NCBI RefSeq assembly: GCF_003334315.1
Contig: NZ_QOWR01000001.1
Length of the DNA: 64,000 nucleotides
Direction: 5' to 3' (one strand)
DNA from: Escherichia coli
Lineage (GTDB): Bacteria > Pseudomonadota > Gammaproteobacteria > Enterobacterales > Enterobacteriaceae
Made by a program: the position numbers. Of the stretch, positions 9,001 through 12,000 are shown in pieces. Numbering within the stretch: the first letter of the stretch is position 1; every line of letters starts with the position of its first letter.

Positions 9001-12000
9001 GTTATCCATCTCGACCAGATAACTGCCATTGCGCCCACGGCGTTCAATCCGTATCGCTCCGCTTGATTCCAGCGTTTTCAACGCGGCCTGCGTCAGGCCA
9101 ACGGATGAACGGCATTCATTTGCCAGCTCATCTATGGTTTTCAATCGATTACCGCACTTTTCACCCAACAAATAACGGGCCAGCGTCGTGATGACGACGC
9201 CTTCTTTTTTGATAAACGTTCGACGCATAATAAATTTTCAGTAAATTGAATATTTATATCTTCAGGAATTTGAAGATAAGGCGCAACAGCGAGATGTGGA
9301 AACGGCGAGGCACTTCACATTTTTTCGGATTATTGCAAATGAGGATAAAAAAACCGGGTTTCCCCGGTTTCAGAGTGATGATAAAAGCAAAATTGCCTGA
9401 TGCGCTACGCTTATCAGGCCTACATTTCCTTGCAATATGTGCATTACTTTGTAGGCCGGATAAGGCGTTCACGCCGCATCCGGCATGAACAAAGCGCAAT
9501 TTGCCAGCAATAGTGAATTACGGCTTCGCCACAAAACCAATCGCTTCGTACACCGCTTTTAGCGTACGGGAAGCGTGCGCGCTGGCTTTTTCCGCGCCAT
9601 CTTTCATCACCTGTTGCAGGAAGGCTTCATCGTTGCGGAAACGGTGATAGCGTTCCTGCAATTCAGTCAGCATACCGGAAACGGCATCAGCCACTTCACC
9701 TTTCAGATGACCATACATCTTGCCTTCGAACTGTTTTTCCAGTTCTGGGATGCTCTGGCCCGTTACCGCTGAAAGGATATCCAACAGGTTGGAAACGCCC
9801 GCTTTGTTCTGCACATCGTAGCGAACTACCGGCGGCTCGTCGGAGTCAGTGACCGCACGTTTGATTTTCTTCACTACCGATTTCGGATCTTCCAGCAGGC
9901 CGATAACGTTATTGCGATTATCGTCAGACTTGGACATCTTCTTGGTCGGCTCCAGCAGCGACATTACGCGCGCGCCAGATTTCGGAATAAACGGCTCCGG
10001 CACCTTAAAGATCTCGCCATACAGCGCGTTGAAACGCTGGGCAATATCGCGGCTCAGTTCGAGGTGCTGTTTCTGGTCTTCACCCACCGGTACCAGATTA
10101 GTTTGATACAGCAGGATGTCCGCTGCCATCAGCACCGGATAGTCAAACAGACCAGCGTTGATGTTCTCGGCATAACGCGCAGATTTATCTTTAAACTGCG
10201 TCATGCGACTCAGTTCGCCGAAGTAGGTATAGCAGTTCAGTGCCCAGCCTAACTGTGCATGTTCCGGCACGTGGGACTGAACAAAAATGGTGCTTTTCTC
10301 AGGATCGATACCACAAGCCAGATACAAGGCCAGCGTATCCAGCGTCGCTTTACGCAGCTTCTGTGCATCCTGGCGCACGGTGATCGCGTGTTGGTCAACG
10401 ATACAGTAAATGCAATGGTAGTCATCCTGCATGTTTACCCACTGACGCAGCGCACCCATGTAGTTACCAATGGTCAATTCACCTGAGGGCTGTGCGCCAC
10501 TAAAAACGATGGGCTTAGTCATTTTTCGATTCCTGATTTTCGCTATGCGGAAGCCCTAATGCGGGCAGAAGGTCATTTATAGACTGATAAATTACATCAG
10601 GCTGGCTGAGATCGATAGCCTCGCCGTAGTTATATCCGTAGGTTAAGCCAACTGATGGGCAACCTGCCGCTTTTGCCGCCTGAATATCATTGCGTGAGTC
10701 GCCGACAAACAGCATCTGTTGTGGGGCAATTCCCATCCGCTCAGCCACCAGTAACAGCGGGTCCGGATGCGGTTTTTTGTTTTGCACATCATCACCACCA
10801 ATCACCACGCTGAAGTATTTGGCGATATCTAAGGCTTCGAGCAGCGGCGCGACGAACGGCGTCGGTTTGTTGGTGACCAGGCCTAGCGGCAGGCCTTTAG
10901 CCTGCAACGCGCCCAACGTATCGGCAACGTGCGGGAGCAAAAACGTCCCCTCTTCGGCAACCTCGCCATAGTAGCGATCGAACAGTTTACGCAGAATACG
11001 TACCTGTTCTTCTGCCGGAATGTCGTCATCAACGGGCGGTTTACCCATTGTTTTACGCTGAGTCGCACGTTCCTGACGCGCCCAGGTCAATGCGCGCTCC
11101 ATCAGAACATCTGCGCCGTTACCAATCCAGGTAATAACGCGTTCTTCACCTGCGACGGGCAACTCCAGCGCATACAGCGCCATATCTACCGCAGCAGCAA
11201 GACCAGGAGCACTGTCGACCAGCGTACCATCAAGATCAAAAGCGACGCCGCGAATATCTTCAAACTTATTCATGACTTACCTTTGCCAGTTCACTGCGCA
11301 TTTCATCAATGACTTTTTTGTAGTCTGGCTGGTCGAAGATTGCCGAACCGGCGACGAACATATCCGCGCCCGCCGCAGCGATTTCGCCAATGTTGTTCAC
11401 CTTCACGCCACCGTCCACTTCTAGTCGAATGTCAAAGCCAGACTCGTCGATACGGCGACGTACTTCGCGCAGTTTATCCAGTGTTTGAGGAATGAAAGAC
11501 TGACCGCCGAAACCAGGGTTGACGGACATCAGCAGGATCACATCCAGCTTATCCATCACGTAATCCAGATAGCTCAGAGGTGTCGCCGGGTTAAATACCA
11601 GACCCGCTTTACAGCCATTTTCTTTAATCAGTTGCAGCGTGCGGTCAACATGCTCGGAGGCTTCTGGATGAAAGGTAATGATGCTGGCACCAGCGGCAGC
11701 GAAATCAGGCACAATGCGATCGACGGGTTTCACCATCAGGTGTACGTCGATAGGGGCGGTAATGCCATAGTTACGCAAGGATTTCAGCACCATTGGCCCA
11801 ATCGTCAGATTGGGAACATAGTGGTTATCCATGACGTCAAAATGCACGACATCAGCGCCAGCTGCCAGGGCTTTTGCGGTATCTTCACCCAGGCGGGCAA
11901 AATCAGCCGACAGAATTGAGGGGGCAATCAAATACTGTTTCATCCGCTTCTCCTTGAGAATTATTTTTTCGCGGGTGAAACGACTCCTGGTTTGTACAAA

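What the first reader, a model, noticed from the sequence alone, without database searches (positions are those of the whole stretch)
9393..9486. Recurrent REP/BIME elements at operon ends
Canonical REP cores (GCCTGATGCG...TTATCAGGCCTAC and GTAGGCCGGATAAG...CATCCGGCA) occur, often as inverted pairs, after frlR (1671-1712), upstream of yhfZ (9393-9486), after mrcA (22361-22391), after tex (36615-36645), after gntT (44751-44840) and after glpD (60448-60546), and possibly as a degenerate copy after malT (52661-52684). They explain the spurious small ORFs the six-frame track reports in those gaps. They are typical of E. coli-like chromosomes and mark 3' ends that may be protected from exonucleases.
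Basis: partly seen in the sequence, partly recalled or inferred. Interest (0 to 1): 0.2.

Follow-up and report, generated by a model that had tools for sequence, protein, structure and literature searches.

The report
Ordinary E. coli REP/BIME repeats
These are the well-known short palindromic REP/BIME repeats that litter the gaps after E. coli genes; the copy at 9393-9486 is a BIME-1 composite that only about a third of E. coli strains carry, so the finding is real but ordinary.

Summary
The window is E. coli chromosome, collinear with K-12 MG1655 3,503,117-3,567,135 at 99.56% identity. The quoted motifs are genuine REP units. Ten profile hits exceed the best score in 100 shuffles, all are intergenic, and all align at 80-100% to the published y/z1/z2 classes.

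The focal element is a BIME-1: z1 iREP 9394-9423, linker 9424-9450, Y REP 9451-9485, inside a ~148-nt unit (9370-9517). That unit fills the space between the trpS stop codon and a conserved intrinsic terminator. Its linker is 27 nt rather than the canonical 35 nt and has lost the ATTGAAT (IHF-like) core.

The element is dispensable. Of 5,426 complete E. coli genomes, 1,735 carry it, 1,823 have an empty site and 1,522 have a different insert.

- The malT hairpin is not a supportable REP.
- The "mrcA" copy lies beyond mrcA's terminator, on nudE's side, and has a second degenerate unit (22431-22460).
- The tex/yhgF copy is truncated.
- A REP after nfuA (43086-43122) was missed.

Published Term-seq puts RNA 3' ends 3-6 nt past the REP hairpins at gntT, malQ, glpD and nfuA. 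It shows none at trpS, frlR, mrcA/nudE or yhgF. This is already known biology and of low interest.

The parts
9370..9393 (.). Left flank of the BIME-1 unit (TCAGAGTGATGATAAAAGCAAAAT)
   Evidence: Matches the family flank consensus TGAGACTGATGACAAACGCAAAAT from 60 independent copies. 90% identical to the glpD copy (D6).
9394..9423 (-). z1-class REP unit. It reads GTAGGCCTGATAAGCGTAGCGCATCAGGCA on the - strand, so it is an iREP on the + strand.
   Evidence: 43.7 bits, E 1e-12. 30/30 identity to the z1 consensus. Hairpin -12.9 kcal/mol, z -3.3.
9424..9450 (.). L-derived linker, 27 nt (ATTTCCTTGCAATATGTGCATTACTTT). It lacks 7 nt (ATATTGA) of the canonical 35-nt L, which removes the TTGAA / IHF-like core.
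   Evidence: Alignment with the glpD and nudE copies. Linker-length census of 129 junctions and the L consensus.
9451..9485 (+). Y-class REP unit (GTAGGCCGGATAAGGCGTTCACGCCGCATCCGGCA)
   Evidence: 40.9 bits. 35/35 identity to the Y consensus, which also fits Nunvar Table 1. Hairpin -21.3 kcal/mol, z -5.3, with an internal mismatch.
9486..9517 (.). Right flank of the BIME-1 unit (TGAACAAAGCGCAATTTGCCAGCAATAGTGAA), abutting the trpS stop codon (9518-9520, - strand)
   Evidence: Family consensus TGAACAAAGCGCACTTTGTCA. D4 repeat with the glpD copy.
9343..9371 (-). Intrinsic terminator of the trpS transcript (hairpin 9371..9350 plus T-run). It is present in all three spacer alleles and is not part of the repeat.
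   Evidence: Terminator scan, fold -14.5 kcal/mol, allele alignment A3, empty-allele fold.
1670..1706 (+). Single long (z2-length) REP with a Y-like GCCGGAT stem, 2 nt after the frlR stop codon. Its 3' half plus an adjoining inverted half-copy forms a 16-bp perfect hairpin (1683-1719).
   Evidence: 17.8 bits, 86% to z2, fold -33.4 kcal/mol.
22361..22395 (-). Degenerate Y REP (head GTTAG instead of GTAG). It lies between nudE's stop codon and the bidirectional mrcA/nudE terminator (22309-22334).
   Evidence: 21.6 bits, 89% to Y, I1 and I9, terminator fold.
22396..22460 (+). L linker (22396-22430, retains TCAA-N4-TTG) plus a degenerate z1-like REP (22431-22460). Together with the Y unit this makes a decayed BIME-1.
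   Evidence: Alignment A2, I6. The z1 profile gives 9.8 bits, which is borderline. 80% identity to z1.
36619..36645 (+). Truncated Y REP (model positions 9-35 only, no GTAG) after yhgF/tex. It is followed by an intrinsic terminator at about 36668-36695.
   Evidence: 23.4 bits. Weak fold, z -1.6. Comparison with MG1655, which keeps 19 more nt of a BIME-1 remnant. Terminator fold.
43086..43122 (-). z2-like REP after nfuA, with compensatory stem changes (GCCCGA/TCGGGC).
   Evidence: 14.6 bits, 81% to z2, hairpin -19.3 kcal/mol. Term-seq 3' end at 3546256(+), window 43121.
44751..44839 (.). REP pair between gntT and malQ: Y unit 44751-44785 (-), 16-nt linker, long z2-length unit 44802-44839 (+). 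It resembles BIME-2 but is a single pair.
   Evidence: 37.1 and 14.5 bits, 97% and 87% identity. Term-seq 3' ends at window 44747 (-) and 44845 (+).
60423..60575 (.). Canonical BIME-1 after glpD: flank, z1 iREP 60447-60476, 35-nt L 60477-60511 with TGCAATATATTGAATTTGCA, Y REP 60512-60546, flank.
   Evidence: 43.7 and 28.9 bits. The linker matches the family consensus. Term-seq 3' end at window 60551 (+).
52660..52685 (.). Hairpin between malT and rtcA (AGCCGGAT...ATCCGGCT). It resembles a REP only in its stem and is not supported as a REP.
   Evidence: 3.3 bits or less, 66-69% identity, one place per genome with no length variants, hairpin -12 kcal/mol.

Best explanation
The listed sequences are members of the E. 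coli REP (palindromic unit) family. The focal element is a BIME-1 composite: z1 iREP, L-derived linker, Y REP and conserved flanks, about 148 nt in all.

Shown:
- It sits wholly inside the trpS 3' UTR, between the stop codon and a conserved intrinsic terminator.
- It is one of three alleles at that spot.
- About two thirds of E. coli genomes lack it.
- Its linker has lost the most conserved part of the L motif.

Inferred:
- It is a dispensable, self-contained repeat copy in a position that tolerates insertions. It was presumably spread by the REP-associated tyrosine transposase (TnpA-REP/RAYT, encoded elsewhere in the genome) or by recombination.
- When transcribed it adds very stable hairpins upstream of the terminator. 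These may slow 3'-to-5' decay of trpS mRNA fragments, but they are not what ends or protects the transcript.
- Having lost the TCAA-N4-TTG core, this copy probably no longer binds IHF, unlike the canonical glpD copy.

Elsewhere in the window, where no intrinsic terminator follows (gntT, malQ, glpD, nfuA), REP hairpins do coincide with steady-state RNA 3' ends. That fits the established exonuclease-barrier role.
For: Identity:
- Profile scores far above shuffles.
- 100% identity of both focal units to the class consensus.
- Published consensus and definitions.
- At least 39 places per genome for queries that contain these units.
- Stable imperfect hairpins with GTAG heads.

Composite unit:
- Alignment with the glpD and nudE copies.
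- 129 junctions from other genomes, 63 with a 35-nt linker and 78 with 34-36 nt, giving the consensus aaggtttcTGCAATATATTGAATTtgcAcgaTTTT.
- 150-nt family consensus including the flanks.

Dispensability:
- Three alleles aligned.
- Counts of 1,735, 1,823 and 1,522 out of 5,426 genomes.

Terminator:
- It is constant in all alleles.
- The BIME folds as a self-contained composite hairpin and leaves the terminator free.

3' ends:
- Term-seq ends fall 3-6 nt past the REP hairpins at four other sites and none is reported at trpS.
- General REP/exonuclease model.
Against: - No direct data on the trpS transcript end were accessible.
- At least one Term-seq pipeline discards multi-mapping reads (Dar & Sorek). 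In the Adams table the minus-strand entries carry much higher scores than plus-strand ones. A REP-associated trpS end could therefore have been missed.
- Loss of IHF binding is predicted from sequence only.
- The direction of the event (insertion into an empty site versus deletion) was not polarised with an outgroup.
- The M8-type allele shares the first ~11 nt (CAGAGTGATGA) with the BIME flank, so the history is more complex than a simple insertion.
- Mobilisation by TnpA-REP has been shown in vitro for cleavage and recombination only, not for BIME-1 transposition.
Confidence: 0.85

Rival explanations
1. The focal BIME acts: an exonuclease barrier that defines and protects the 3' end of the trpS (dam operon) mRNA.
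For: The REP hairpins are very stable (Y -21.3 kcal/mol, whole unit -70 kcal/mol). REP-adjacent 3' ends are seen at gntT, malQ, glpD and nfuA in the same window. The REP-stabiliser model is established in the literature.
Against: A canonical intrinsic terminator lies immediately downstream on the same strand and is conserved in all alleles. No 3' end is reported at prefixes 35124-35126 in three Term-seq conditions. 3,345 of 5,426 genomes lack the BIME at this site.
Confidence: 0.2
2. The focal element is an IHF-binding RIP/RIB site that contributes to nucleoid architecture or local DNA bending, as described for BIME-1.
For: It has the BIME-1 architecture of z1 and y around an L-derived linker. 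L linkers frequently carry an IHF site.
Against: Its linker lacks the 7 nt that include TTGAA, the positions conserved in at least 59 of 62 canonical linkers. The best remaining match to WATCAANNNNTTR has mismatches at the C and A of the TCAA core, by manual reading. No IHF ChIP table covering the locus could be accessed.
Confidence: 0.08
3. The BIME acts as a transcription attenuator or insulator that reduces read-through from the highly expressed dam-trpS operon into yhfZ and the yhf genes.
For: BIMEs have been reported to attenuate transcription (Espeli et al. 2001, cited). The element lies between two same-strand transcription units.
Against: The intrinsic terminator already does this and is present without the BIME in a third of strains. 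No termination data were available for this site.
Confidence: 0.12
4. The matches are chance GC-rich palindromes or ordinary terminator hairpins, not a repeat family.
For: Only the malT hairpin fits this description.
Against: Ten hits exceed every one of 100 shuffles. Two units are 100% identical to consensus sequences derived from other genomes. Queries containing the units hit dozens of places per genome.
Confidence: 0.01

Closest known systems
E. coli REP / palindromic units, classes y, z1 and z2
   Same: Length of 30-38 nt. Imperfect GC-rich palindrome with an internal mismatch. GTAG head. Extragenic position next to gene 3' ends. High copy number. Sequence identity of 80-100% to the class consensus.
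   Different: Three units are decayed: nudE Y has GTTAG, nudE z1 has ATAAG, and the yhgF unit is truncated. Two long units (frlR and the second gntT unit) combine z2 length with a y-type GCCGGAT stem.
BIME-1 (also called RIP or RIB elements)
   Same: One z1 and one y unit in inverse orientation (…CTAC-linker-GTAG…). Single copy at the locus. L-type linker and conserved outer flanks. The glpD copy is canonical.
   Different: The focal trpS copy has a 27-nt linker missing ATATTGA, so the IHF-like core is gone. It was the only such variant among the 129 junctions sampled.
BIME-2
   Same: The gntT/malQ pair has a y unit and a z2-length unit separated by a short 16-nt linker.
   Different: It is a single pair rather than a tandem array. 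The long unit carries G rather than T in the stem (GCCGGAT). Gyrase binding was not tested.
REP mRNA stabilisers / protective 3' stem-loops of Rho-dependent transcripts (Newbury 1987; Peters 2012; Dar & Sorek 2018)
   Same: At gntT, malQ, glpD and nfuA the Term-seq 3' ends fall 3-6 nt after the REP hairpin with no U-tract.
   Different: At trpS and yhgF, and for nudE, a canonical intrinsic terminator follows the REP, and no REP-adjacent 3' end is reported.

Membership tests
REP (E. coli y/z1/z2) | 30-40 nt imperfect palindrome able to form a stem-loop with a mismatch in the stem | tested here: met
   Hairpins of -12 to -21 kcal/mol with z from -3.3 to -5.3. Internal mismatches are visible in the dot-bracket structures. 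The truncated yhgF unit (z -1.6) and the glpD Y unit (z -2.0) are weaker.
REP (E. coli y/z1/z2) | Conserved GTAG tetranucleotide 5' of the palindrome foot | tested here: met
   Present in 8 of 11 units, including both focal units. Absent or degenerate in nudE Y (GTTAG), nudE z1 (ATAAG) and yhgF, which is truncated.
REP (E. coli y/z1/z2) | Sequence match to a class consensus | tested here: met
   80-100% global identity against a null 99th percentile of 69%. Ten profile hits above the maximum of 100 shuffles. Consensus taken from PMC2817692 and from 61 independent copies.
REP (E. coli y/z1/z2) | Extragenic, and highly repeated around the chromosome | tested here: met
   All hits are in the 8.7% of the window that is intergenic, P about 4e-8 for 7 loci.
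REP (E. coli y/z1/z2) | Substrate of TnpA-REP (RAYT): binding to REP, cleavage at CT in the iREP or linker | not testable with these tools
   Biochemical property (PMC3333891). No RAYT gene lies in this window (gene map).
BIME-1 | One z1 and one y unit in inverse orientation, as a single copy | tested here: met
   trpS: 9394-9423(-) z1 and 9451-9485(+) Y. glpD: 60447-60476(-) z1 and 60512-60546(+) Y. There is no tandem repetition.
BIME-1 | Long, well conserved L linker (35 nt in this census) | tested here: inconclusive
   The glpD copy is 35 nt and matches the consensus. The trpS copy is 27 nt, clearly L-derived (TGCAATAT…TGCA…TTT) but with a 7-nt internal deletion.
BIME-1 | IHF binding site within L | tested here: not met
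   This applies to the focal copy, at sequence level only. The TTGAA core (TCAA-N4-TTG on the other strand), conserved in at least 59 of 62 canonical linkers, is deleted. It is retained in the glpD and nudE copies. Actual IHF binding could not be tested.
BIME-2 | z2 and y units with a short S linker, in tandem copies, bound by gyrase | tested here: inconclusive
   gntT/malQ has a y unit plus a z2-length unit with a 16-nt linker, but as a single pair, and the long unit has a y-type stem. Gyrase binding is not testable here.
REP-type protective 3' stem-loop | Steady-state RNA 3' end a few nt downstream of the hairpin, without a U-tract | tested here: not met
   This applies to the focal trpS copy. 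No 3' end is listed in the Adams et al. Term-seq tables, and an intrinsic terminator follows. The feature is met at gntT, malQ, glpD and nfuA.

The most novel reading that the evidence does not exclude
The interval between the trpS stop codon and its terminator may be a recurrent landing site used by two unrelated repeat families: BIME-1 in 32% of genomes, a BoxC-like-containing insert in 28%, and empty in 34%. The resident BIME-1 would then be a natural IHF-core deletion variant. Together these alleles would form a ready-made natural series for measuring what a BIME-1, with or without its IHF site, does to an essential gene's mRNA and to local chromosome structure.
Probability: 0.3. Interest if true: 0.3.

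Novelty: already known. Interest (0 to 1): 0.1.

Why it matters
For annotation, this matters in four ways.
- The small ORFs in these gaps should be discounted.
- The malT hairpin should not be labelled a REP.
- The nfuA REP and the second nudE unit should be added.
- The focal element should be labelled a BIME-1 in the trpS 3' UTR rather than a yhfZ upstream element.

Biologically it repeats what has been known since the 1980s and 1990s. REP/BIMEs sit at gene 3' ends, are a main source of intergenic polymorphism between E. coli strains, and some coincide with protected RNA 3' ends. The only mildly new details are the L-core deletion in the trpS copy and the three-allele frequency picture across 5,426 genomes.

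Tried and rejected
- The Rfam gathering search of the whole window gave no hits.
- The NC_000913.3 feature table available here lists no REP repeat_region features, so curated REP names could not be used.
- The original BIME and RIB papers (PMC333889, PMC413762) are not held.
- Dar & Sorek's Term-seq tables, the Prieto IHF ChIP tables and the 3'-UTR valve tables are not held.
- The Kasho IHF supplements and the TERMITe supplements do not mention the loci.
- A search for the Liang/Deutscher paper on REPs close to stop codons did not retrieve it, so that idea is not used as evidence.
- A fuzzy-regex scan timed out and was replaced by nhmmer.
- The IS1 in strain EM18-18-42 was checked as a possible REP-targeted insertion. 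It lies in yhfZ, not in the BIME.
- The malT hairpin was tested as a decayed REP by profile, by identity and by population variation, and was rejected.
- The name 'BoxC' for the second repeat could not be verified by sequence. Only the existence of that family is cited.
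Full report
**Origin of the window.** The window is E. coli chromosome. A 1-kb query around the finding matches all 5,426 complete E. coli genomes. The whole window aligns to K-12 MG1655 NC_000913.3 3,503,117-3,567,135 on the + strand at 99.56% identity, with 261 SNPs. There are only three indel sites. One is a cluster of gaps that leaves the window 19 nt shorter inside the REP after yhgF. One is an extra G at 57321 that keeps glpR intact. The third is a single base at 60954. 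Gene coordinates were transferred from the MG1655 annotation.

- A loose 14-mer pattern is enriched: 19 matches against 5.3 +/- 2.4 in shuffles.
- An unbiased repeat search of the whole window recovers the family (D2, D4, D6, D8, I1-I3, I6, I7, I9).
- For a stricter test I built Y and z1 profiles from 61 BIME-1 copies taken from other genomes and added the published z2 consensus. Ten window hits score above the maximum seen in 100 dinucleotide shuffles, which was 13.8 bits.
- All ten lie in the 8.7% of the window that is intergenic.
- Global identity of the eleven units to their best class is 80-100%, against a 99th percentile of 69% for random 35-mers. Both focal units are 100% identical to their class consensus.
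- Each unit folds into a stable imperfect hairpin of -12 to -21 kcal/mol. The two weaker cases are the truncated yhgF unit and the glpD Y unit.

**What the focal element is.** Published definitions (PMC3333891) describe REPs as 30-40 nt imperfect palindromes with a 5' GTAG, in classes y, z1 and z2. BIME-1 is one z1 and one y unit in inverse orientation around a long L linker that frequently carries an IHF site, present as a single copy. The focal element fits this architecture:
- z1 iREP at 9394-9423
- linker at 9424-9450
- Y REP at 9451-9485

Its similarity to the glpD copy extends about 24 nt to the left and about 30 nt to the right (D4 and D6). A consensus of 60 independent copies shows the same conserved flanks. 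The unit is therefore about 148 nt (9370-9517). It fills the whole interval between the trpS stop codon (9518-9520, - strand) and an intrinsic terminator hairpin (9371..9350 plus T-run).

**The linker.** A pattern scan of the species-representative genome collection returned 120 stretches of DNA with a match. Extracting junctions from those loci and from the window gave 129 z1…GTAGG junctions. In 63 the linker is 35 nt, and in 78 it is 34-36 nt. The consensus is aaggtttcTGCAATATATTGAATTtgcAcgaTTTT, and TTGAA at positions 18-22 is present in at least 59 of 62 copies. On the opposite strand this reads TCAA-N4-TTG, which is the core of the IHF consensus WATCAANNNNTTR. That consensus is from my own knowledge. 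The presence of an IHF site in L is cited. The trpS linker is 27 nt and lacks ATATTGA. It was the only junction in the sample with this deletion. I infer that IHF binding is lost at this copy. No IHF ChIP table for the locus could be accessed.

**Population view.** The trpS-yhfZ spacer has three main alleles (alignment A3).

| Allele | Genomes of 5,426 |
|---|---|
| BIME-1 (window/K-12 type) | 1,735 |
| Empty site: trpS stop, 17 nt, terminator | 1,823 |
| Replacement insert (unique ~60 nt plus a 43-nt repeat) | 1,522 |

The 43-nt repeat in the third allele also occurs at window 1741-1783. The terminator is identical in all three alleles. The BIME is therefore a lineage-variable insert upstream of a constant terminator. 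In the predicted RNA the BIME folds as one self-contained composite hairpin (-70 kcal/mol, z -5.8) and leaves the terminator free.

**The other sites.**
- **frlR.** A single long REP at 1670-1706, 2 nt after the stop codon. Its 3' half and an adjoining inverted half-copy form a 16-bp perfect hairpin.
- **mrcA/nudE.** The listed unit (22361-22395) lies downstream of mrcA's bidirectional terminator (22309-22334), so it is on nudE's 3' side. It is one half of a decayed BIME-1. The linker still carries TCAA-N4-TTG, and the second z1-like unit is at 22431-22460.
- **yhgF/tex.** A truncated Y unit at 36619-36645, followed by an intrinsic terminator. MG1655 keeps 19 more nt of a BIME-1 remnant here. 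The window's shorter form appears to be the commoner allele.
- **gntT/malQ.** A Y unit and a long unit separated by 16 nt.
- **glpD.** A canonical BIME-1 with a 35-nt L.
- **malT.** The hairpin scores 3.3 bits or less, has 66-69% identity and no GTAG, and occurs once per genome without length variants. It is not a demonstrable REP.

**Position relative to genes.** REPs occupy 4 of 7 convergent gaps, 3 of 15 tandem gaps and 0 of 7 divergent gaps. In the tandem gaps they sit 22-32 nt from the upstream gene's stop codon and about 165-380 nt from the next start codon, by my reading of the coordinates. 'At operon ends' is therefore accurate. The focal copy is best described as following trpS, the last gene of the same-strand run aroK-aroB-damX-dam-rpe-gph-trpS.

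**Do they mark protected 3' ends?** Adams et al. 2021 (PMC7815308, supplementary file 1) list Term-seq 3' ends in NC_000913.3 coordinates. Each 61-nt string places the 3' end at position 51, which I verified against window coordinates. The ends that fall at REPs are:

| MG1655 coordinate | Window coordinate | Position |
|---|---|---|
| 3547882(-) | 44747 | 4 nt past the Y unit; malQ transcript; the strongest signal in the region |
| 3547980(+) | 44845 | 6 nt past the long unit; gntT transcript |
| 3563685(+) | 60551 | 5 nt past the glpD Y unit; a second end at 60428 follows a non-REP hairpin |
| 3546256(+) | 43121 | 3 nt past the nfuA REP stem |

No 3' end is listed in any held condition for the trpS, frlR, mrcA/nudE, yhgF or malT sites. 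Dar & Sorek 2018 report that 24% of Rho-dependent and 13% of intrinsic 3' termini are associated with annotated REPs, and that they discarded multi-mapping reads. Absence of a signal at a repeat is therefore weak evidence. It is not supported for the focal copy.

**Most likely mechanism for the focal copy.** It is a dispensable repeat copy in a tolerant 3' UTR position. It adds stable hairpins upstream of the real terminator and probably no longer binds IHF. The steps shown are identity, architecture, linker deletion, polymorphism, and constancy of the terminator. The steps inferred are neutrality, loss of IHF binding, and mobilisation by TnpA-REP, for which only in vitro cleavage and recombination have been shown. 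The rivals are an exonuclease barrier for trpS, an IHF architectural site, and a transcription attenuator. They are listed with their tests.

**Novelty.** REP, BIME-1/RIP and BIME-associated intergenic polymorphism are textbook features of E. coli. The finding is correct and ordinary. The only small additions are the L-core deletion in the trpS copy and the allele frequencies.

Noticed in passing
window 1741-1783 (frlR|yhfS gap); also L123 410-452: A second dispersed repeat (TCCCCTCACCCTAACCCTCTCCCCAAAGGGGCGAGGGGACCGT) lies next to the frlR REP. The identical 43 nt form part of the alternative insert at the trpS-yhfZ site in 1,522 genomes. It occurs at a median of 5 and up to 13 places per genome. 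It is probably the 'BoxC' family, but that name is from memory and was not verified by sequence.
   Followed up: partly
window 1683-1719: The 3' half of the frlR REP, together with an adjoining inverted half-copy, forms a perfect 16-bp hairpin (-33.4 kcal/mol) that out-competes the normal REP fold. It is followed by a moderately T-rich stretch, so it could serve as frlR's terminator.
   Followed up: partly
window 36606-36618 vs L002 4715-4750: The only multi-base structural difference from MG1655 in 64 kb lies inside the REP/BIME remnant after yhgF. MG1655 keeps …CTGGCCTAC-linker-GTAGGGCAGATAAG…, and the window lacks 19 nt of it. Judged from a spread sample of hits, the window's form appears to be the commoner allele.
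   Followed up: partly
window 57321 (glpR, 56713-57471, - strand): The window has an extra G relative to MG1655, where glpR is annotated as a pseudogene. glpR is probably intact in this strain, so the strain is not MG1655.
   Followed up: no
window 46945-49338 (malP) and 60999-63446 (glgP): The longest direct repeats in the window (300 nt at 72% identity, among others) come from the paralogous phosphorylase genes malP and glgP, not from mobile repeats.
   Followed up: no
window 60400-60428: A non-REP hairpin (TCAGGTCAGATTTCAATCTGGCCTGA, -18.1 kcal/mol) lies immediately after glpD, and a Term-seq 3' end sits at its foot. glpD transcripts therefore have two alternative ends, one before and one after the BIME-1.
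   Followed up: partly
L123 338-410 (E. coli M8 and 1,521 other genomes): The alternative trpS-yhfZ insert shares its first ~11 nt (CAGAGTGATGA) with the left flank of the BIME-1 unit and then diverges into ~60 nt found only at this locus. The history of the three alleles is therefore not a simple presence/absence.
   Followed up: partly
L010 6970-7468 (E. albertii NBRC 107761): Four z1-L junctions are spaced about 147 nt apart, which looks like a tandem array of BIME-1-like units in E. albertii. BIME-1 is described as single-copy in E. coli.
   Followed up: no
L005, L039, L048, L049 (MAGs labelled Oscillospiraceae, Granulosicoccus, Bacteroidales, Bacteroides): Exact enterobacterial z1…GTAGG junctions occur on contigs binned into non-enterobacterial MAGs. 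These are most likely mis-binned or contaminating Enterobacteriaceae contigs.
   Followed up: no
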